DNA from: Candidatus Colwellbacteria bacterium
Lineage (GTDB): Bacteria > Patescibacteriota > Minisyncoccia > UBA6257 > Colwellbacteraceae
Assembly: GCA_016176525.1 (NCBI GenBank)
Contig: JACOWZ010000003.1
Coordinates: 459,357 to 523,356 of the forward strand
Length of the DNA: 64,000 nt
Reading direction: 5' to 3'
In this document: piece after piece, positions 3,943-40,107 of the stretch
Numbering within the stretch: the first letter of the stretch is position 1
Layout of the letters: the number at the start of each line of letters is the position of its first letter
The notes under the pieces: generated by a model
What the model saw: only the letters and a program-made list of their open reading frames with translations
Told to the model about the DNA's origin: nothing
The model's database searches: none
Position numbers and translations under genes: made by a program

Positions 3943-4566
3943 ATGTTAACTCCACCCAAAGACTCCACTATTATTAACGTTTGCGTTATACCGTCAGATG
4001 AGGTTGGTGCAGAGTGTGTGAAGATTAGCCAATCTTTAAGATCAAACGGTACGGCGTTCATATTGGATGGTAAAAGCAAGTTTGCACATATGACAGTATT
4101 TATGGCCAGATTTGCGAATAGTAAAATACCAAATATATTAAATGCAACGGAAAAGGCCCTAAAAAATACCCGTAGTTTTCTTTGCGAGCATACCGGTTAT
4201 TTTATGACTTCCGGAAGATATCTCGAGGTTTCTTACCGTAGGTCTGAACAGTTTATGGCGTTGCACGAGGGATTAATTAATAGTTTGAAAAACTACCGAA
4301 TTAATCCAGGCCAACCATTTGAGGAGGGATATTTTACTCCATATACCAAAGAACAAAGAAAAAATGCTGAAGAAACCGGCTACGATCTAGCTTACAACTT
4401 ATACAGGCCCCACATTACTCTTACGCGATATAAAGAAGGGCAAGTACCGGAAGTCTTTCCGGCATTTCCTCAAGTTAAACTATCATTTAACCTAAATAGG
4501 GTTTGCGTGTATAAAGCCGACGATAATGGGGCGGTTTATGAACGTCTCGCTGAATTTGTAATATAA
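3943..4566 (+). CDS. 2H phosphoesterase superfamily protein (LigT / 2'-5' RNA ligase-like)
   Basis: two H-x-T-x motifs (AHMTVF and PHITLTR) about 100 aa apart. Confidence 0.55.
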   Translation: MLTPPKDSTIINVCVIPSDEVGAECVKISQSLRSNGTAFILDGKSKFAHMTVFMARFANSKIPNILNATEKALKNTRSFLCEHTGYFMTSGRYLEVSYRRSEQFMALHEGLINSLKNYRINPGQPFEEGYFTPYTKEQRKNAEETGYDLAYNLYRPHITLTRYKEGQVPEVFPAFPQVKLSFNLNRVCVYKADDNGAVYERLAEFVI

Positions 4567-4645
4567 AATAAGTAGATTTCATCTCATCACCATATAGTGG
4601 GTTTAGTTTATAGCAAAACTTGCGTGTTATAATTGATTCATAGCG

Positions 4646-6115
4646 ATGTCTATTCTTATTAAAAATGTCCAAGTTGTGGACGGTACCGGTGCCGAGCCCT
4701 ACAAAGCAGACGTTTTTGTGCAGAAAAATTTAATTTCTGCGATAGGGGATTTAAAGAAAAAAGAAGCGGACGAGACGATAGATGGCCTTGGTAATTACCT
4801 TACCCCAGGATTTATAGATGTTGATTCCGCATCCGACCAATATTTGTCTATCTTTACGTACCCCGAGCAGACAGGGTTTAGGGAGCAAGGTGTTACAACA
4901 ATAGTAGGCGGGCATTGCGGGTCGTCCCTTGCACCGCTCTTATACGGCACATTAGAGTCTATACGCAAGTGGGCAGATATTACTAAAATAAATGTTGACT
5001 GGCATACGACTGCGGAACTTTTTGCGGCTTTGGAGAAACTTAAGCTCGGAGTTAATTTCGGCACGCTTACGGGGCACTCCACAATAAGGCGCTCTATAGT
5101 AGGGGAGACGACCAGAGGCCTTACATTCAACGAAATTAATGTTTTTAAAAAGATTTTAACTAAAGCGTTGGAGGAGGGGGCTTTCGGCATGTCCACCGGC
5201 TTGGGATATATTCACGGCAAAAATACGCCGGTTGATGAAATAAAAGAGCTTGCCTATATTGTAAAAAGATATGACGGGGTTTATTCCACGCACCTTAGAA
5301 ACGAAGGCTATGGACTTTTGGCTGCAATTGACGAAACTTTGGCTGTAGCAAAAGAGACAGGCGTTAAAACCATAATAAGTCACCTCCGGCCGTTAAACGG
5401 TTTTGAATTGCAGTTTGATGAAGCTGTCTATCGGATAAAAGAGAGCGCCGAAGGGAATGTATATTTCTACATTTATCCGTCTGACACCAGTCTTGTTGTT
5501 TTATATAAATTTTTGCCGGAGTGGGCGCAGGAGAGAAATTTAGAAAGGATGTTGGAGATTTTGCGAAATCCAAATAACGCCGAGCGCCTTGAGGCAGATT
5601 TGCAAGAAATTGCTTTAGGGAATCTTGTGGTTGCCGATGCTCCCAAGAATGAATATTTAGTGGGCAAAAGCCTTGCGGATTTATCAGAAATGTTCGCAAT
5701 TCCGCCTATAAAAAGTTTGCTTAAGCTTATGGACATAACAGGTCTAAAGGCTACTATGCTTCATAAAAACATTAACATTAATAAAATTACGGAAGTTATA
5801 GCCGAAGATTACGTGATGATTGCATCTAATAGCGCATCTCGCGCGTCTTCCGATAAATTTATCCCGGCGGAGCGTGCCACAAACACCTTCCCTAAATATT
5901 TACAGCTTACTGTGCCAACTAAAAAACTCTCAATACAAGCCGCGATAAGAAAAATAACATCATTGCCGGCAAATTATTTTGGAATAAAAGATAGAGGAAT
6001 TTTACGCGAAGGCAAAGTTGCAGATTTAACACTAATAGACAAGAACGACTTGAGTATAAAAGAGACTATACTTGCAGGCAAAGCATCTAGCGGAGAACCT
6101 TTAAAGAGGGGATGA
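4646..6115 (+). CDS. amidohydrolase-family protein, N-acyl-D-amino-acid deacylase (D-aminoacylase)-like
   Basis: blocks PGFID, GVTTIVGGHCGSSLAPL, GHSTIR, THLRNEG, ISHLRP are collinear with the D-aminoacylase sequence as I recall it; the usual HxH after PGFID is replaced by DVDSASD. Confidence 0.6.
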   Translation: MSILIKNVQVVDGTGAEPYKADVFVQKNLISAIGDLKKKEADETIDGLGNYLTPGFIDVDSASDQYLSIFTYPEQTGFREQGVTTIVGGHCGSSLAPLLYGTLESIRKWADITKINVDWHTTAELFAALEKLKLGVNFGTLTGHSTIRRSIVGETTRGLTFNEINVFKKILTKALEEGAFGMSTGLGYIHGKNTPVDEIKELAYIVKRYDGVYSTHLRNEGYGLLAAIDETLAVAKETGVKTIISHLRPLNGFELQFDEAVYRIKESAEGNVYFYIYPSDTSLVVLYKFLPEWAQERNLERMLEILRNPNNAERLEADLQEIALGNLVVADAPKNEYLVGKSLADLSEMFAIPPIKSLLKLMDITGLKATMLHKNININKITEVIAEDYVMIASNSASRASSDKFIPAERATNTFPKYLQLTVPTKKLSIQAAIRKITSLPANYFGIKDRGILREGKVADLTLIDKNDLSIKETILAGKASSGEPLKRG

Positions 6116-11494: not shown

Positions 11495-11522
11495 TTGACA
11501 AACTTTTAAAAGAAGGTATAAT
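11495..11522 (+). promoter_or_regulatory. consensus sigma-70-like promoter (TTGACA-N16-TATAAT)
   Basis: exact TTGACA at 11495-11500 and exact TATAAT at 11517-11522; the GC-rich non-coding locus starts 2-7 nt downstream. Confidence 0.7.
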
Positions 11523-17177: not shown

Positions 17178-17453
17178 TTGGATTATATAGACAAGTTAAA
17201 GCAGCGAGCAAAAGAGTCAAAAGTTTATACCAAGCATCAGCTGGTTGGGCTTGAGCTTGCAGAGATTTTAGACGACGAAGAGCATAAATCTTTATATATG
17301 AAACTTGCTAAAACACACGACGCAGATAGATTGCTCAAGCTTGCAAAATCGGTTGCTGAGAATAAAAAAGTAGAAAATAAAGGAGCGTATTTTATGCGCG
17401 TTTTGGAAATCAGAAAAATAAAAGCGGCTTCTTCCGAAGAAGATAGCCGCTAA
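17178..17453 (+). CDS. hypothetical protein (91 aa, TTG start)
   Basis: ORF with native AT-rich composition; no recognisable family. Confidence 0.35.
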   Translation: MDYIDKLKQRAKESKVYTKHQLVGLELAEILDDEEHKSLYMKLAKTHDADRLLKLAKSVAENKKVENKGAYFMRVLEIRKIKAASSEEDSR

Positions 17454-17474
17454 TGGGGTTGCGGTGTAATTAAG

Positions 17475-17876
17475 TTAGCCGTCTACGATCTGTACTGCGT
17501 AGATGACGAACTTATAGTCCGCTTTGCACTTCAGGTAGAGGGCGTAGTCTTCGCCGGCGTACCACACCTTCACCTGCTGGTTGTTCTCGCTGGCGTTGCG
17601 GAGTGTGGACACGATTGCCTGTTCGTTGGGTCCCGTTGTTATGGCATATGTGTCCGTCGGCTGGCCGGCGGGCAGGTAGTGAGCGAACTGGACGTTCCAG
17701 GTCGGGCAGATGGTGCCGCTCGGCCACACCGTGAGGACGTGGTCATTGAAGTAGCAGTTCTCCTCGGCTTCTCCGCAGACGCGGCTGCCGACACGCACCG
17801 TCATTGAAGAGACGAAGGCGGTCAGAATGCCGGCGATGATGAGGACGCCGATTAGGACCTTGCCGGCGGTCTTCAT
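17475..17876 (-). CDS. small secreted Cys-containing protein (133 aa) of foreign GC-rich composition
   Basis: N-terminal signal/TM MKTAGKVLIGVLIIAGILTAFVSS; GC-rich codons (GGC/GCC/CTG/GAC) unlike the flanks; start overlaps the upstream lipoprotein stop (ATGA). Confidence 0.6.
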   Translation of the reverse strand: MKTAGKVLIGVLIIAGILTAFVSSMTVRVGSRVCGEAEENCYFNDHVLTVWPSGTICPTWNVQFAHYLPAGQPTDTYAITTGPNEQAIVSTLRNASENNQQVKVWYAGEDYALYLKCKADYKFVIYAVQIVDG

Positions 17877-18520
17877 CCCTTCACCTCCGCCATATTACTG
17901 GCATCAGCGACGCCTGACGGGTTCGCGAAGTTGTAGCCTTGGTCCCAAGCCGTGTTGAGGCCCGGGAATGTGCGTTTCATCGCCTTGATGCAGCCGTGGT
18001 CCATCGAGTTCGCCAGCGACAAGCTGGTCAACTCGACGCAGTAGACGACTTCGTTGTCTGTGTACTTGCACTCCGTATCCGAGTACCGGATCCAGTAGAA
18101 GCGCAGTTCCAATTTTTCGGCGCGCCATTGCTGGAGACTGTTGATTAGCTTGCTATCGTAGGGCAAGCCATATTTTGCTTCGTCGCCCGAGCCAGTGCCG
18201 TGGTCGTTGCGGAACTGGACACTCCACTTCATGTTCGAGCAGACACCTCCAACGTGCGGATAGCCATTGTTGTCGGGGCACGGCAAGATGGCCGTCGCTC
18301 TGTCCTCACCGCTGTAGGCGCTGTTGTCGGGGCTGCACGAGGTGTCCATGCCGTACTCCTGATACACTCGGGCAGGGATGTCCTGGCCGACGCCACCAGC
18401 GATGATGTTCATTGTGTTTGCTTTCACGGGGCCAGATTGTTCATCCGCACAGCCGGCGAGTAGGGCGGTTGCGATTACGGCGAGCGCGATGCTCACCGCC
18501 TTGGTTTTCATTTTCACGTT
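17873..18520 (-). CDS. Cys-rich lipoprotein of foreign GC-rich composition (start at GTG 18520 or ATG 18514)
   Basis: lipobox LLAGC after MK(M)KTKAVSIALAVIATA; AGGAGA 9 nt upstream of the GTG; GC-rich codon usage. Confidence 0.6.
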   Translation of the reverse strand, partial: NVKMKTKAVSIALAVIATALLAGCADEQSGPVKANTMNIIAGGVGQDIPARVYQEYGMDTSCSPDNSAYSGEDRATAILPCPDNNGYPHVGGVCSNMKWSVQFRNDHGTGSGDEAKYGLPYDSKLINSLQQWRAEKLELRFYWIRYSDTECKYTDNEVVYCVELTSLSLANSMDHGCIKAMKRTFPGLNTAWDQGYNFANPSGVADASNMAEVKG

Positions 18521-18613
18521 ACCATTTCTCCTTATGTGCAAACTTTCAGATTTTAAAAGGACATTCCTAAAGCCGCAAACGGCTTTGGAATTACCCTTTC
18601 ACCGTCTTCAGCT

Positions 18614-18641
18614 TGCGGCAATATTGTACATATAAATGCTT
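18614..18641 (-). promoter_or_regulatory. sigma-70-like promoter for the GC-rich operon (TTGACA-N16-TACAAT on the - strand)
   Basis: the reverse complement of 18614-18641 reads TTGACAaataagcatttatatgTACAAT; the roughly 90-nt leader carries the hairpin AAAGCCGUUUGCGGCUUU. Confidence 0.5.
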
Positions 18642-18743
18642 ATTTGTCAAATCTCCGCATGGGAAGAATACTTCATAAGGAGCCGCTATACTATGTTAAT
18701 AACGGGGTGGTATCATTAATTATGTCACCCAATTTCCGGTATT

Positions 18744-19387: not shown

Positions 19388-20233
19388 ATGAAATATATTT
19401 TTTTCGGAACTCCGCGGTTTGCGGAAATTGTCTTAAAAAAGCTGATTGATTCTGGTATGTTGCCAGTTGCGCTTGTGTGCAACCCCGACAAGCCGGTTGG
19501 CCGCAAAAAGGTTATTACTCCGCCACCCACCAAAAAACTACTCACTACTAACTACTCACTACCAACTGTTATTTTGCAGCCAGAAAAATTGGACGACGAG
19601 TTTCTAACTAGACTAAAGAAACTGAAGGCTGATTTCTATGTCGTTGCGGCTTATGCAAAGATTTTACCGAAAAAATTACTCCAGATTCCGCACCTTGGCG
19701 TAATCGGTGTGCATCCCTCGCTTTTGCCAAAGTATAGAGGTGCAACGCCAATACAGTCTGCAATTTTATCTGGTGGAGAGAAAACCGGCATTTCGCTTTA
19801 TTTAATAGACGAAGGAATGGACAGCGGCTCAATTCTCGCCCAGCGAGAATTAGAAATAGTAGATGTAGATTATCGAAAATTAGAAGAAGAATTAGCAGAA
19901 CTTGCTGGAGCAATGCTCGTAGAAACACTTCCAAAATTTGTTAAGGGTGAAATAAAACCCATGCCGCAAGATGATTCTAGAGCAACTTATACGCGCAAGT
20001 TTAAAACAGAAGATGGGTTTATTGATTCCGAGGCTTTGCGTAAGGCAGAAGCCGGTGATAAAAAGCTCGCAAAAGAAATATACAATAAAATTCGCGCCCT
20101 TAATCCCGAGCCGGGTGTTTACACAATAAAGAACGGCAAGCGTATTAAACTACTAAAAGCAAAGCTCGCCGAAAGTGGCGAGCTTATACTTTTAGAAATC
20201 CAGAAAGAAGGAGGTAAACCTCAAACTATCTAG
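19388..20233 (+). CDS. fmt: methionyl-tRNA formyltransferase (start moved to the ATG at 19388)
   Basis: MKYIFFGTPRFA...NPDKPVGR Fmt N-terminus; the tracked ORF start at 19325 would read through the repeat element; a TATAAT sits at 19371-19376. Confidence 0.85.
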   Translation: MKYIFFGTPRFAEIVLKKLIDSGMLPVALVCNPDKPVGRKKVITPPPTKKLLTTNYSLPTVILQPEKLDDEFLTRLKKLKADFYVVAAYAKILPKKLLQIPHLGVIGVHPSLLPKYRGATPIQSAILSGGEKTGISLYLIDEGMDSGSILAQRELEIVDVDYRKLEEELAELAGAMLVETLPKFVKGEIKPMPQDDSRATYTRKFKTEDGFIDSEALRKAEAGDKKLAKEIYNKIRALNPEPGVYTIKNGKRIKLLKAKLAESGELILLEIQKEGGKPQTI

Positions 20234-20729
20234 ATGCTTGGATTACCTGTGCTACTCCATCAATATCTTGTGCATCAGGAGCTGATACGGTAATTTGGCC
20301 GTTTGCATCTTGCAATACCTCATATTGGGTGTCGTAGTTAGTTGCGTCTGTCCATGTGCCTGTCTGCGGGTCTACCGGCAGAGAAGAAATATATGTTGGC
20401 ACTAGACAATCTGCAATGTCGTAGTCGCCCACCGTGCTGCTCATATTAATAGCAGCTGCAGGTATCGGTTCATCTGTCGCGTCTGCATCTGGGTCGCAAA
20501 CTGCAGGGACTCCACCTTGGCCGGCGGCCTCAAAATCACCCCCTCTTAGGTCAACTAATCTTTGGCCTATAGCGTTAAGAAGGGTGTTAACATCTGCGGT
20601 TCTTGTTGTGTTGTTAGCTTGGGCAAACTGCCTTGCGGGGTTTAGTGCAACAAGTACAACGCCAGCCAAAACGGCGATGATGCCTATAACTATCAAAAGC
20701 TCAATAAGTGTAAAACCTTTTTTGTTCAT
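20226..20729 (-). CDS. type IV pilin (probable major pilin)
   Basis: class III signal MNKKGFTLIELLIV with G|FTLIE cleavage/methylation site. Confidence 0.8.
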   Translation of the reverse strand: MNKKGFTLIELLIVIGIIAVLAGVVLVALNPARQFAQANNTTRTADVNTLLNAIGQRLVDLRGGDFEAAGQGGVPAVCDPDADATDEPIPAAAINMSSTVGDYDIADCLVPTYISSLPVDPQTGTWTDATNYDTQYEVLQDANGQITVSAPDAQDIDGVAQVIQASR

Positions 20730-20798
20730 TAATTCAATTGTATTTGTCGACCTTTTAAACTGTTTTAAATTATATCACAGCATTATCTAGTCTCAATG

Positions 20799-27498: not shown

Positions 27499-27574
27499 AC
27501 GCGAGCGGAAGGATTTGAACCTTCGGGTTCCAGTCTCCGGTAGACTGGCGTCTTGCCAAGCTAGACTACGCCCG
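27499..27574 (-). tRNA. tRNA with non-canonical anticodon arm (CCG-containing loop; would read CGG/Arg if a CCG anticodon is used)
   Basis: manual cloverleaf: acceptor GCGGGCG/CGCUCGC, D-stem GUCU/AGAC, T-arm GAAGG-UUCAAAU-CCUUC; the anticodon arm CCAGU-CUACCGGAG-ACUGG is 19 nt, either a 9-nt loop or a 7-bp stem with a 5-nt loop; CCA not encoded. Confidence 0.7.
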
Positions 27575-28112
27575 CAAAGAGCTCCAGGCACGCTTAGGAG
27601 GGAGGGATATTTCGGGGTAAGTGTGCCCTGGAGCTGGGTTATGTTTTAATGTGCACCCCTTCGTGCGGTTCAAGCCGGTTTGGCTCGTTTGATGGTTGTC
27701 ACTTGATTGTCTGCTGTTTGGGTTGTTAACCAAGGGGGTTTCCAGAGAAACTCCCATTTTGTTTGAGACAATACCTGGACAATCGCATGCACGCACGAAG
27801 GGGGTTGTTCCACTTAAGGAACTTCGTCCTATCGACACCGGCTTGTCGCCGAGTGTATTTTACGTCGCTCGGACGAATGAGCGAACAACTCTAGCTTTGT
27901 TGGCATCCGCCAACACCTTTTCCCGAGTCAATACTCGGTACTTTTGCGTATTCCAGAGAAGACCATGCTAGGCGGCTTGTCTTCTCTCCGATCTCGTAGT
28001 ACGTAGTCCATCTGGTTTGGTGCTTTTACCGTTTCTCGATGGAGTAGAAACAGTAGCGAGCCCTTTACGGCTCACATTCAATTTATATCATAAAGCCCAA
28101 TTTATGGCAAAT
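27575..28112 (-). ncRNA. candidate structured non-coding region (about 540 nt) directly 5' of the tRNA on the same strand; class unknown
   Basis: no plausible ORF; elevated GC; 12-bp stem AGCTCCAGGCAC/GTGCCCTGGAGCT and many further hairpins; strand uncertain. Confidence 0.35.
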
Positions 28113-34393: not shown

Positions 34394-34466
34394 TGCCAGA
34401 TCGTCTAGGGGTAGGACGTCGCTCTCTGGAAGCGAAAACCGGGGTTCGAATCCCTGTCTGGCAACA
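34394..34466 (+). tRNA. tRNA-Gln (CUG)
   Basis: manual fold: acceptor UGCCAGA/UCUGGCA, D-stem GUCU/GGAC, anticodon arm UCGCU-CUCUGGA-AGCGA with anticodon CUG, T-arm CGGGG-UUCGAAU-CCCUG. Confidence 0.75.
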
Positions 34467-39672: not shown

Positions 39673-39737
39673 AAGACTTTATTTTAACATTGCTTGCGTT
39701 TAATGCATAAATATGGTAAATATAGCGCGCAGGTAAT

Positions 39738-40098
39738 TCAGGTAATAGCTCTGCAAACTTCCGTAATTTTAACCGAAAAGACAGCTCTTTCCAAAGGCGA
39801 GTTTGTAGGGAGGAAAGTCCGGACACCTAGCAACAAGTACAGGTTAACGGCCTGCCGCAGTAATGCGAGAGGTGCGAACAGTGACGCCCCGTGGCGAAAG
39901 CTTATGGGGGAGCCCTATCTCAAGCTAGTCGGCTCAATTCGGTGATAGAGATAAAAAAGCCGAAGTGAAACGTTTCTAAATCCTTACCGGGTGCAAGACC
40001 GTGCTCCGATAAACATCGGAGAGAGTCGCTAGAGCCCGCGAGTAATCTCGGGCCCAGATAAATTGTTGCCAAATACAGAATCCGGCTTATGAATTACC
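39738..40098 (+). ncRNA. rnpB: RNase P RNA (bacterial type A)
   Basis: GGAGGAAAGUCCGGAC (P4 5' strand), ACAGAAUCCGGCUUA (P4 3' strand), P1 pairing AGGUAAUUCA/UGAAUUACCU. Confidence 0.85.
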
Positions 40099-40107
40099 TG
40101 CATATAA

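What the first reader, a model, noticed from the sequence alone, without database searches (positions are those of the whole stretch)
17475..18541. Sharply GC-rich two-gene operon (lipoprotein plus small secreted protein) embedded in AT-rich native DNA
The segment from about 17470 to 18545 has strongly GC-biased codon usage (GGC, GCC, CTG, GAC, GTG). By eye it is near 60% GC against roughly 40% in the flanks. The two translationally coupled ORFs (ATGA overlap) encode a Cys-rich lipoprotein (lipobox LLAGC) and a 133-aa signal-peptide protein with four Cys. The promoter and 5' UTR (18545-18640) are AT-rich, so only the coding sequence looks foreign. This is the signature of a recent horizontal acquisition from a high-GC donor that has not yet ameliorated. 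Neither protein resembles a family I can name. The size and topology suggest a surface or secreted effector pair, such as a toxin/binding subunit or a lectin-like pair.
Basis: partly seen in the sequence, partly recalled or inferred. Interest (0 to 1): 0.65.

Follow-up and report, generated by a model that had tools for sequence, protein, structure and literature searches.

The report
Phage-derived membrane-protein pair captured by CPR bacterium
A 1.3-kb GC-rich insert in an AT-rich ultrasmall (CPR) bacterium carries two related, membrane-anchored proteins of a previously unnamed family otherwise found on virus-like contigs; a second, unrelated CPR bacterium captured the same pair independently, which hints that these proteins help such cells deal with phages or with their host's surface.

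Summary
Window 17475-18541 has 57.9% GC against 41.4% for the rest (z=6.3). The two ORFs rank first and second of 75 for GC3 (0.75/0.83; others at most 0.49). Two independent assemblies reproduce the junctions. Eight related CPR loci show an empty site where orf91-def-fmt is contiguous, so a 1.3-kb cassette was inserted there. It comprises a native-style near-consensus promoter, a structured leader, ORF1-ORF2 (ATGA overlap) and an intrinsic terminator. The donor was probably not a cell. Nearly all homologues lie on phage-like contigs (14-110 kb, with varied replication modules) where the pair matches local GC. The only other cellular copy is an equally anomalous island in a Saccharibacteria MAG, from a different phage sub-clade and also behind a consensus promoter. 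ORF1 and ORF2 are paralogues in an unannotated superfamily (hhalign 99.5% and 97% through a bridging family). The domain is membrane-anchored, disulfide-rich and probably OB-fold, with weak resemblance to AB5-toxin B subunits. Function is inferred, not shown. The likeliest role is an envelope-binding module used by phages for superinfection exclusion and domesticated by CPR cells. Phage origin is well supported; mechanism is speculative.

The parts
17428..18743 (-). Whole inserted cassette (approximate limits), lying between the conserved end of orf91 and the def start codon
   Evidence: In 8 related CPR loci orf91, def and fmt are contiguous (overlapping or abutting in 7; about 150-nt spacer in L017). 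In the window they are 1.29 kb apart. The left limit is inferred from where the orf91 C-terminus departs from its relatives.
18623..18650 (-). Sigma-70-type promoter-like site TTGACA-16-TACAAT (11/12) in AT-rich DNA
   Evidence: Only 6 sites with at least 11/12 matches occur in the 64-kb window on both strands (about 2 expected). It has the same 16-nt spacer as three of the other five strong sites, including the one upstream of the pilin gene at 20796.
18512..18620 (-). 5' leader with a long stem-loop (core arms 18556-18599), then UUUUAAAA, then AAGGAG upstream of the start
   Evidence: RNA fold -36.4 kcal/mol, z=-4.06, 0 of 200 shuffles as stable. No Rfam family. No other copy in the window and no similarity to phage flanks.
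17873..18511 (-). ORF1: 212-aa lipoprotein (LAGC lipobox) with an OB-like core carrying the W-x-V-Q-F-x-N-D-H signature, a Cys-rich insertion and a C-terminal helical region; 6 conserved Cys
   Evidence: The ORF finder's alternative TTG start at 18541 gives 222 aa; GTG 18517 is also possible (AAGGAG lies 10 nt upstream).
17475..17876 (-). ORF2: 133-aa paralogue of the ORF1 core with an N-terminal TM/signal anchor (the ancestral lipobox Cys is lost), 4 Cys, and the N-D-H-P motif replaced
   Evidence: ATGA overlap with ORF1 and GGAGG 7 nt upstream of its ATG.
17423..17450 (-). Intrinsic terminator (GC stem, UUCG-type loop, then UUUUAUUUUU) that overlaps the 3' end of the convergent orf91
   Evidence: RNA fold -17.9 kcal/mol, z=-2.98; sequence.

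Best explanation
The segment is a self-contained expression cassette of about 1.3 kb whose coding part came from a high-GC (at least about 60%) phage or virus-like element. It was inserted between the formerly coupled genes orf91 and def of a Candidatus Colwellbacteria (CPR) genome.

The cassette has a strong native-style promoter, a structured leader, two translationally coupled genes and a terminator. The two products are paralogues belonging to a previously unnamed, metagenome-only superfamily. This superfamily consists of small extracytoplasmic domains that are lipid- or TM-anchored, disulfide-stabilised and probably OB-fold.

The following is inferred, not shown. On the outer face of the membrane the two proteins form a hetero-complex that binds an envelope component (glycan or protein). 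ORF1 keeps the invariant D/W/N-D-H/Y residues and ORF2 has lost them. In phages, where the pair sits among early and replication genes, this most likely modifies or masks the cell surface to block superinfection. In the CPR cell the captured pair is kept and strongly expressed for the same reason, as resistance to phages that carry or resemble the donor.

Stated probabilities: foreign, phage-derived, domesticated cassette about 0.85-0.9; envelope-binding OB-like heteromer about 0.5; superinfection exclusion or phage resistance as the selected function about 0.3.
For: Foreign origin:
- GC and GC3 are extreme outliers.
- Eight related loci show an empty site.
- The junctions are reproduced in two independent assemblies from different runs.

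Phage source:
- Homologues lie in unidirectional arrays of small ORFs. Neighbours include DNA ligase, PolB, protein-primed PolB, PIF1/Dda-like helicase, MCM, MazG, ThyX, a 5-hmdU kinase-like gene, HNH and LAGLIDADG.
- Neighbours match PHROGs strongly (1e-135, 7e-69, 4e-53) and match cultured phages distantly.
- In those contigs the pair's GC and GC3 match the carrier, whereas in both CPR genomes it is an island.
- Among 185,579 GTDB species representatives only one other cellular genome has it.

Independent capture: the window copy groups with L001, L073 and L003 (69-72%). The Saccharibacteria copy groups with L078 and L006 (74-84%).

Domestication and expression:
- Both CPR copies have near-consensus or perfect promoters (11/12 and 12/12) and intrinsic terminators. 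The phage copies lack these.
- All invariant residues and Cys are retained.

Protein nature:
- Lipoboxes or TM anchors are present in all full-length members.
- Six conserved Cys in ORF1.
- Paralogy through a bridging family: hhalign 99.5% (E 3e-23) and 97.0% (E 1e-10).
- The AF2 model (pLDDT 76.5, pTM 0.73) has beta1-beta2-beta3-alpha-beta4-beta5 order.
- Best fold neighbours are OB-fold AB5 B subunits and small uncharacterised phage proteins.

Precedents:
- Phage surface lipoproteins mediate superinfection exclusion: Ltp (PMC3952083) and T5 Llp (PMC9586334).
- A phage of a high-GC host binds its CPR epibiont and infects it to a limited extent (PMC13578794).
Against: - No structural phage genes were seen in the 12-kb slices available. 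None of the carrier contigs or families is in IMG/VR or INPHARED. The 'phage' label therefore rests on gene content.
- Host signals of the carriers conflict. It is unknown whether those viruses ever meet CPR cells.
- Fold matches are not significant against PDB (E>=0.09, TM 0.45-0.54), and three structure libraries were unavailable.
- No similarity to any known superinfection-exclusion or defence protein.
- Heteromer formation, ligand and function are untested.
- The insertion mechanism is unknown. There is no integrase and there are no convincing flanking repeats.
- The AT-rich promoter, leader and terminator have no identifiable source.
Confidence: 0.8

Rival explanations
1. Transfer from a high-GC cellular donor (for example the CPR cell's actinobacterial or proteobacterial host) rather than from a virus. 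Under this view the virus-like contigs are merely other recipients.
For: The composition implies a source of about 60% GC or more. CPR bacteria live attached to other bacteria (PMC13578794). The carrier contigs are not independently classified as viral.
Against: A scan of 185,579 species-representative genomes found the family in no high-GC cellular genome, only in one Saccharibacteria MAG where it is again an island. All long non-CPR contexts look like phage replication modules, with matching composition.
Confidence: 0.08
2. The captured pair serves attachment rather than defence. It would be a surface-displayed lectin-like OB-fold heteromer that binds a glycan or receptor on the CPR cell's host bacterium, the same envelope target it binds for the donor phage. 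This would help the epibiont adhere.
For: The nearest folds are glycan-binding AB5 B subunits. In a monoderm-like CPR cell both proteins would be exposed on the cell surface (lipobox and TM anchor). There is a strong promoter comparable to the pilin gene's. Two epibiotic CPR lineages captured it independently.
Against: Fold similarity is weak. In diderm phage hosts these lipoproteins would face the periplasm, not the outside. No adhesin family match. There is no evidence on the ligand.
Confidence: 0.15
3. It is an AB5-type or other secreted toxin/effector pair.
For: There are two translationally coupled secreted proteins with an ATGA overlap, as in stxAB or pltAB. The top PDB fold hits are PltB, ArtB, SubB and pertussis S2/S3. 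APSE phage P10 is among the viral fold hits.
Against: No enzymatic A-subunit domain is present: Pfam, NCBIfam and PDB give nothing. The two proteins are paralogues of one another. They are membrane-anchored through a lipobox or TM segment rather than released. Fold scores are non-significant.
Confidence: 0.04
4. It is an assembly or binning artefact: a contaminant fragment joined into a CPR contig.
For: A sharp compositional step in a MAG is the classic warning sign.
Against: Two independent Logan assemblies from different sequencing runs give the identical def-ORF1-ORF2-orf91-Ctp-L9 arrangement at 100% identity. The foreign part is bracketed on both sides by native genes within a 645-kb contig. 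It is fitted with a native-style promoter and terminator.
Confidence: 0.02
5. It is the last remnant of a decayed prophage rather than a discrete cassette insertion.
For: The genes are of phage type. Prophage decay commonly leaves accessory genes behind.
Against: The foreign DNA is only about 1.0 kb and ends at the two coding boundaries. It sits inside a formerly coupled housekeeping operon. No integrase, att-like repeat, tRNA or other phage gene lies nearby. The same two-gene unit stands alone in the Saccharibacteria island as well.
Confidence: 0.05

Closest known systems
Phage 'morons' (independent promoter-gene-terminator units of deviant GC inserted between genes; concept of Hendrix and colleagues, from my own knowledge)
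   Same: It is a self-contained transcription unit with its own promoter and terminator. Its composition differs sharply from its neighbours. It is an accessory gene pair that is dispensable to the neighbours. The same pair also occurs in unrelated viral backbones.
   Different: Here the moron-like anatomy is found in cellular CPR chromosomes, not in the phage copies. The phage copies sit inside polycistronic arrays without a promoter of their own. The promoter and terminator are native-style AT-rich DNA, not part of the transferred piece.
Phage superinfection-exclusion lipoproteins: Ltp of S. thermophilus phage TP-J34 (PMC3952083) and Llp of coliphage T5 (PMC9586334)
   Same: These are phage-encoded, lipid-anchored, small extracytoplasmic proteins, expressed from early or lysogenic regions. 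Ltp is surface-exposed on a monoderm cell, as ORF1 would be on a CPR cell.
   Different: No sequence similarity was found (no Pfam or PHROG hit). The predicted fold class differs: OB-like, against the helical repeats of Ltp (from my own knowledge). This system is a two-paralogue pair with three or two predicted disulfides. Function here is untested.
B subunits of AB5 toxins (PltB, ArtB, SubB, pertussis S2/S3): glycan-binding OB folds
   Same: They are the best-scoring PDB fold neighbours. Both are small secreted beta-rich domains with disulfides, have the same beta1-beta2-beta3-alpha-beta4-beta5 order, are often phage-borne, and are encoded by overlapping gene pairs.
   Different: Scores are not significant (E>=0.09, TM 0.45-0.54, 6-13% identity). 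There is no A subunit. The proteins here are membrane-anchored rather than released. ORF1 has an extra Cys-rich insertion and a C-terminal helical region.
Two-component spanins (i-spanin plus o-spanin lipoprotein) of phages of diderm hosts
   Same: Both are adjacent or overlapping phage genes encoding a lipoprotein and a second membrane-anchored protein.
   Different: In the phage copies both proteins are lipoproteins. They are globular and beta-rich rather than coiled-coil or proline-rich. They lie among replication and early genes with no lysis genes seen nearby. CPR cells have no outer membrane to disrupt (from my own knowledge).

Membership tests
Horizontally acquired genomic island | Composition and codon usage deviate significantly from the resident genome | tested here: met
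   GC 0.579 against 0.414, z=6.3. GC3 0.75/0.83 against a mean of 0.378, z=7.5/8.9, ranks 1-2 of 75.
Horizontally acquired genomic island | Absent from the same site in related genomes (empty site) | tested here: met
   Eight related loci have orf91-def-fmt contiguous. The relatives are distant, however (Ctp 45-48% identity).
Horizontally acquired genomic island | Homologues exist in a plausible donor pool with matching composition | tested here: met
   Phage-like contigs of 62-68% GC carry the pair with GC3 0.83-0.93. The window copy is 69-72% identical to that clade.
Horizontally acquired genomic island | Real junctions, not a misassembly | tested here: met
   Identical arrangement in two further assemblies from different runs.
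Bacterial lipoprotein (Lgt/Lsp substrate) | N-terminal signal peptide ending in a lipobox [LVI][ASTVI][GAS]C | tested here: met
   ORF1 has LAGC with the Cys at residue 31 (TTG numbering). 15 of 18 family members have a lipobox and the other three are N-terminally truncated calls. ORF2 of the window does NOT meet this feature: SSM replaces SGC.
Bacterial lipoprotein (Lgt/Lsp substrate) | Host encodes Lgt and LspA, and the protein is lipidated | not tested
   Only 64 kb of the 645-kb genome was available. No experiment.
Phage moron | Own promoter and terminator flanking the accessory gene or genes | tested here: met
   TTGACA-16-TACAAT promoter-like site and a stem plus U-run terminator. The same is seen in the Saccharibacteria island. 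These are predictions only.
Phage moron | Located within a phage or prophage genome | tested here: not met
   The neighbours are L9, Ctp, def and fmt, which are housekeeping genes. In the phage contigs the pair lacks a promoter of its own.
Ltp-type or Llp-type superinfection-exclusion lipoproteins | Sequence or profile similarity to the family | tested here: not met
   No Pfam, PHROG or PADLOC hit outside the signal peptide. No PDB-sequence hit.
Ltp-type or Llp-type superinfection-exclusion lipoproteins | Blocks adsorption or DNA entry of the cognate phage | not testable with these tools
   Needs an infection assay.
AB5 toxin | B subunit: OB fold related to known B subunits | tested here: inconclusive
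   The top PDB cluster is PltB, ArtB, PltC, SubB and PT-S2/3, but with E 0.09-0.8 and target-normalised TM 0.45-0.54. The model core is confident (pLDDT above 90) with OB strand order.
AB5 toxin | Adjacent enzymatic A subunit (ADP-ribosyltransferase, N-glycosidase or subtilase) | tested here: not met
   Neither ORF has any enzyme-domain hit, and ORF1 and ORF2 are paralogues.
AB5 toxin | Soluble secreted pentamer (SPase I signal, no membrane anchor) | tested here: not met
   Lipobox or TM anchors occur throughout the superfamily. Oligomeric state was not tested.
Two-component spanin | An i-spanin with an N-terminal TMD and periplasmic coiled coil, plus a small proline-rich o-spanin lipoprotein, in a lysis cassette | tested here: not met
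   Both phage proteins are lipoproteins. The predicted fold is a beta-rich OB-like core. The contexts are replication and early genes.
New 'WxVQ-NDHP' membrane-anchored OB-like superfamily (proposed here) | Profile-level homology among the ORF1 family, the ORF2 family and the 109-131-aa small family | tested here: met
   hhalign A5 vs A1: 99.5%, E 3e-23. A5 vs A2: 97.0%, E 1e-10. Direct A1 vs A2: only 25%, E 8e-4. Columns G, D, W, N-D-H and Y are invariant across 42 sequences.

The most novel reading that the evidence does not exclude
CPR epibionts are exposed to phages of their high-GC bacterial hosts. At least twice they have captured the early-expressed surface-masking (superinfection-exclusion) pair of such phages and put it under a strong native promoter. 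This would immunise the epibiont against collateral infection or adsorption by host phages. If so, the pair is a new class of OB-fold exclusion proteins. The composition and phylogeny of the captured genes would then point to the still unknown host, or host virome, of Colwellbacteria.
Probability: 0.2. Interest if true: 0.8.

Novelty: new variant of a known kind. Interest (0 to 1): 0.55.

Why it matters
Hosts and phages of most CPR/Patescibacteria are unknown, and the first experimental CPR-targeting phage was reported only in 2026 (PMC13578794). Here a viral gene pair was captured independently by two CPR classes, kept intact and given consensus promoters. That is a concrete, testable trace of phage-CPR or host-phage-CPR contact.

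It also defines an unannotated protein superfamily, with about 45 sequence clusters detected here, all from metagenomes, and a clear signature (W-x-V-Q-[LF]-x-N-D-H-P). That signature could be added to family databases and tested for envelope binding or phage exclusion.

If the function is different or trivial, the finding is still a clean textbook example of an un-ameliorated HGT cassette with a defined empty site in a reduced genome.

Tried and rejected
- **Family and sequence libraries:** Pfam, NCBIfam, PHROGs, PADLOC and PDB-sequence searches on both proteins and on distant members gave only signal-peptide noise.
- **Leader RNA:** Rfam on the leader and island found nothing, so a known riboswitch was rejected.
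- **Cultured phages and plasmids:** INPHARED tblastn with ORF1, ORF2 and a small-family member, and PLSDB plasmids, gave no match.
- **IMG/VR:** scans with three alignments found none.
- **First structure model:** the AF2 run on the shallow 18-sequence alignment was unusable (pLDDT 48.5). It was replaced by the 42-sequence run.
- **Host of the carrier viruses:** inference from neighbour genes gave conflicting answers: Proteobacteria phages, tectivirus-like or archaeal pPolB, archaeal-virus MCM, Actinobacteria phages. No host is claimed.
- **Spurious profile hits:** P0028 (Ig-like repeats) and P0031 (kinase fragment) from the profile search were judged spurious.
- **Shared 9-mer:** CCGCAACCC downstream of ORF2 in both CPR islands is absent from the phage copies and judged chance.
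- **Flanking repeats:** none convincing. A 17-nt, 82% inverted repeat brackets the island but is one of many such pairs.
- **Depositor names:** NCBI names for P0006, P0011 and P0013 were not available.
- **Rejected hypotheses:** spanin, AB5 toxin, prophage remnant and misassembly were considered and rejected or down-weighted (see the rivals and membership tests).
Full report
OBSERVATION.
- Window 17475-18541 has 57.9% GC against 41.4% for the rest of the 64-kb window. It is the most GC-rich 1067-nt window, 6.3 sd above all non-overlapping ones, whose maximum is 48.7%.
- Third-codon-position GC is 0.75 (ORF1) and 0.83 (ORF2). The other 73 non-overlapping ORFs of at least 100 aa average 0.378 (sd 0.05, max 0.487), so the two ORFs rank first and second, z = 7.5 and 8.9.
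- Composition falls to 0.32-0.40 within about 30 nt of the ORF1 start and the ORF2 stop.
- The ORFs overlap by ATGA.
- ORF1 has an LAGC lipobox and six Cys in its mature part. ORF2 has an N-terminal hydrophobic segment and four Cys.
- The likeliest ORF1 start is ATG 18511, the depositor's call, giving 212 aa, or GTG 18517. It is probably not the TTG at 18541.

WHOSE GENOME, AND IS THE JUNCTION REAL. ORF1 and ORF2 are identical to hypothetical proteins HYS87_02780 and HYS87_02775 of a Candidatus Colwellbacteria (CPR/Patescibacteria) MAG, on a 644,793-bp contig. Two further assemblies, made independently from two different sequencing runs, give the same def-ORF1-ORF2-orf91-Ctp-L9 arrangement at 100% identity.

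EMPTY SITE. A metagenome scan with the neighbouring Ctp protease returned 63 related loci. In eight of them (L010, L011, L013-L015, L017, L018, L052; Ctp 45-48% identical) the genes orf91, def and fmt lie contiguously on one strand. In seven of these the def start overlaps or abuts the orf91 stop; L017 has a spacer of about 150 nt. In the window the same three genes have the same orientation, but orf91 (17178-17453) and def (18744-) are 1.29 kb apart. The gap holds the GC-rich pair on the opposite strand. The C-terminus of orf91 departs from its relatives where it runs into the terminator hairpin. The insertion therefore spans about 17428-18743. These relatives are not close sisters, so the time of insertion is open.

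ANATOMY. Read on the minus strand, the insert is a complete transcription unit.
- Promoter-like site TTGACA-16-TACAAT at 18650-18623. It is one of only six sites with at least 11/12 matches in the window, against about two expected. Its 16-nt spacer is shared with three of the other five strong sites, including the one upstream of the pilin gene.
- A leader that folds into a long stem-loop (-36.4 kcal/mol, z = -4.06). It matches no Rfam family.
- AAGGAG, then ORF1.
- GGAGG, then ORF2.
- A GC stem followed by UUUUAUUUUU (-17.9 kcal/mol).
The promoter, leader and terminator are AT-rich, unique in the window, and unrelated to sequences flanking the pair elsewhere.

WHERE THE PAIR COMES FROM. ORF1 has 17 relatives (47-72% identity) and ORF2 six (55-69%) among 5.8 billion clustered proteins. 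None is annotated. Every non-CPR context that could be read is a unidirectional array of small, mostly unannotated ORFs with phage-type replication or nucleotide-metabolism genes:
- DNA ligase, LAGLIDADG, SprT and PTH2 (L001, 78.6 kb, and a similar 94-kb contig);
- AAA ATPase, PIF1/Dda-like helicase and PolB (L003, 62.6 kb);
- ParB-HTH and HNH (L004, 46 kb);
- protein-primed PolB and MazG (L006);
- ThyX and a 5-hmdU-kinase-like gene (L073);
- MCM helicase (L076)
. Several neighbours match PHROG families strongly (1e-135, 7e-69, 4e-53) and match cultured phages distantly.

In these contigs the pair has the composition of its carrier. GC3 is 0.48-0.58 in carriers of about 50% GC and 0.83-0.93 in carriers of 62-66% GC. 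It has no promoter of its own there.

The ORF1 homologue is followed by an ORF2 homologue in nearly all contexts. The exceptions are L076, where a 50-aa ORF intervenes, and L078, where ORF2 is missing.

Caveats. No capsid or terminase gene lies within the slices I could read. The family is also absent from IMG/VR, INPHARED and PLSDB. 'Phage-like' is therefore a well-supported inference, not a demonstration. Host signals from neighbour genes conflict, so I assign no host.

A SECOND, INDEPENDENT CAPTURE. Among 185,579 GTDB species representatives the only hit is a Saccharibacteria MAG. There too the pair is an island: 61% GC in 47% GC flanks, with GC3 of 0.76/0.83. It lies next to SHMT, FolD, DAGK, PGI and RecA. 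Its anatomy matches the window's: a perfect TTGACA-16-TATAAT promoter, a leader, an ATGA-overlapping pair and an intrinsic terminator. In both proteins the window copy groups with L001, L073 and L003 (69-72% for ORF1). The Saccharibacteria copy groups with L078 and L006 (74-84%). These are therefore separate acquisitions from different viral sub-lineages. Both retain high GC3, so amelioration is slight at most.

WHAT THE PROTEINS ARE. An exhaustive profile search of 1.84 billion representatives showed that the ORF1 family is a single 50%-identity cluster. It also gave weak hits to proteins of 109-125 aa. Expanding these gave about 25 unannotated, metagenome-only proteins of 109-131 aa. They also lie on ORFan-rich mobile or viral-type contigs.

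This small family bridges ORF1 and ORF2:
- small family against ORF1 family: hhalign 99.5%, E = 3e-23;
- small family against ORF2 family: 97.0%, E = 1e-10 over 106 columns;
- direct ORF1-ORF2 comparison: only suggestive (25%, E = 8e-4)
. The pair therefore consists of two paralogues.

Across 42 sequences, G20, D24, W76, N82-D83-H84 and Y94 (mature ORF1 numbering) are invariant, within the signature W-x-V-Q-[LF]-x-N-D-H-P. ORF2 keeps the scaffold but has Q-Y-N-P in place of N-D-H-P.

All full-length members start with a hydrophobic segment, usually ending in a lipobox-type Cys and sometimes forming a plain TM anchor. Every ORF2-family copy extracted from the loci has a lipobox, but the window ORF2 has lost the Cys (SSM for SGC) and has a longer hydrophobic segment.

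With the 42-sequence alignment, AlphaFold2 gave a usable model of mature ORF1 (pLDDT 76.5, pTM 0.73, core above 90). Its order is beta1-beta2, a low-confidence Cys-rich insertion, then beta3-alpha-beta4-beta5, followed by three C-terminal helices. That is the canonical OB-fold order (my own knowledge). Foldseek against PDB returned no significant hit. Its top cluster was OB-fold AB5-toxin B subunits (PltB, ArtB, PltC, SubB, pertussis S2/S3; E 0.09-0.8, target TM 0.45-0.54), together with MCM and ligase OB domains. Against viral models the best hits were an uncharacterised Caudovirales protein (E = 8e-4) and APSE phage P10 (E = 0.014). The other three libraries were unavailable.

HOW IT MOST LIKELY WORKS.
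Shown:
- a foreign cassette with an empty site in related loci;
- a donor pool on virus-like contigs;
- two independent captures by CPR bacteria;
- intact conserved residues;
- strong predicted expression signals;
- extracytoplasmic anchoring signals;
- paralogy of ORF1 and ORF2.

Inferred:
- Both proteins sit on the outer face of the membrane and form a hetero-complex of an 'active' (NDH-bearing) and a 'degenerate' OB-like domain.
- The complex binds an envelope glycan or protein.
- In the viruses the genes lie in early and replication regions, which is where lytic phages place exclusion genes such as T5 llp (PMC9586334). The complex there masks or alters the surface to prevent superinfection.
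- In CPR cells the captured pair gives resistance to related phages.

The Ltp lipoprotein of S. thermophilus phages is a precedent for a surface-exposed exclusion lipoprotein on a monoderm cell (PMC3952083). The finding that a prophage of a high-GC host binds its Saccharibacteria epibiont and infects it to a limited extent gives an ecological route and a selective reason (PMC13578794).

Probabilities: phage-derived domesticated cassette 0.85-0.9; envelope-binding heteromer about 0.5; exclusion or defence as the function about 0.3; adhesion to the host about 0.15; toxin at most 0.05.

COMPARISON AND NOVELTY. As a phenomenon this is a known kind: an un-ameliorated HGT island, or a moron-like accessory cassette. 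Four things are new.
- The protein superfamily has no Pfam, NCBIfam or PHROG model and no cultured representative.
- Its members are a paired, paralogous, membrane-anchored OB-like architecture.
- Two CPR classes independently captured the same viral pair.
- In both cases the pair was fitted with near-consensus promoters.
It fails the membership tests for Ltp/Llp, AB5 toxins and spanins, and resembles the first two only in how it may work. I rate it a new variant of a known kind, with interest 0.55. The acquisition story is solid and moderately surprising. The functional reading is a lead that would matter for CPR-phage-host biology if confirmed.

Noticed in passing
window 17178-17453 (+), and L010, L011, L013-L015, L017, L018, L052: orf91 is a conserved 75-91-aa protein with an 'NKGAYFM' motif and no Pfam or NCBIfam match. 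It overlaps or abuts def in seven of eight related CPR loci (a spacer of about 150 nt in L017), forming an orf91-def-fmt operon. It looks like an unannotated small partner of the deformylase/formyltransferase genes, and the island split that operon in this genome.
   Followed up: partly
window 20226-20729 (-), promoter-like site at 20796: This type IV pilin gene (N_methyl motif) has an 11/12 promoter-like site with a 16-nt spacer. Its variable C-terminal half is richer in GC (about 0.51) than its surroundings.
   Followed up: no
window 18556-18599 (-), within leader 18505-18620: This is a very stable leader stem-loop (-36 kcal/mol including the outer stem, z=-4.1) followed by UUUUAAAA, lying between the promoter and the ORF1 start. 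It matches no Rfam family. It could be a 5' stabiliser or an attenuator.
   Followed up: partly
window 17423-17439 and 18671-18687: A 17-nt inverted repeat (82% complementary) brackets the inserted cassette almost exactly. It is one of many such weak pairs in the region, so it may be chance.
   Followed up: no
window 11495 (+); also 31413, 33043, 42669 (-): These are the other near-consensus or perfect sigma-70-type promoter-like sites in the window (12/12 at 11495). Several have 16-nt spacers, which suggests a preferred promoter architecture in this genome.
   Followed up: no
window 39730-40104 (+), 27499-27576 (-), 34394-34465 (+): RNase P RNA (class A, 125 bits), tRNA-Arg(CCG) and tRNA-Gln(CTG). 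These explain some of the minor GC peaks in the window.
   Followed up: yes
L073 6621-8491; L076 5165-6976; L006 1631-3844: The carrier contigs of the pair have very different replication and modification modules. L073 has ThyX plus a 5-hmdU-DNA-kinase-like gene, which suggests hypermodified thymidine. L076 has an MCM helicase closest to archaeal viruses. L006 has a protein-primed PolB closest to tectiviruses and Methanosarcina spherical virus. The pair therefore moves among unrelated viruses.
   Followed up: partly
L076 1882-2034; L078 1925-2320: There are variations on the pair. In L076 a 50-aa ORF sits between the ORF1 and ORF2 homologues. L078 has an ORF1 homologue followed by an unrelated 131-aa ORF.
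   Followed up: no
L079 and L080 (53-55 kb contigs, GC 0.45), gene at 4344-4706 / 4187-4549: These are single-domain members of the new superfamily (120 aa, TM-anchored). They lie next to a resolvase and an HNH gene on ORFan-rich contigs from a groundwater project (Ga0172379) with the same JGI sample-series prefix as some of the CPR relatives (Ga0172371, Ga0172375, Ga0172380).
   Followed up: no
window 17456-17464 and L007 1647-1655: The 9-mer CCGCAACCC occurs 11 and 18 nt after the ORF2 stop in the two CPR islands. It is not found downstream of the phage copies, so it is probably coincidence.
   Followed up: yes
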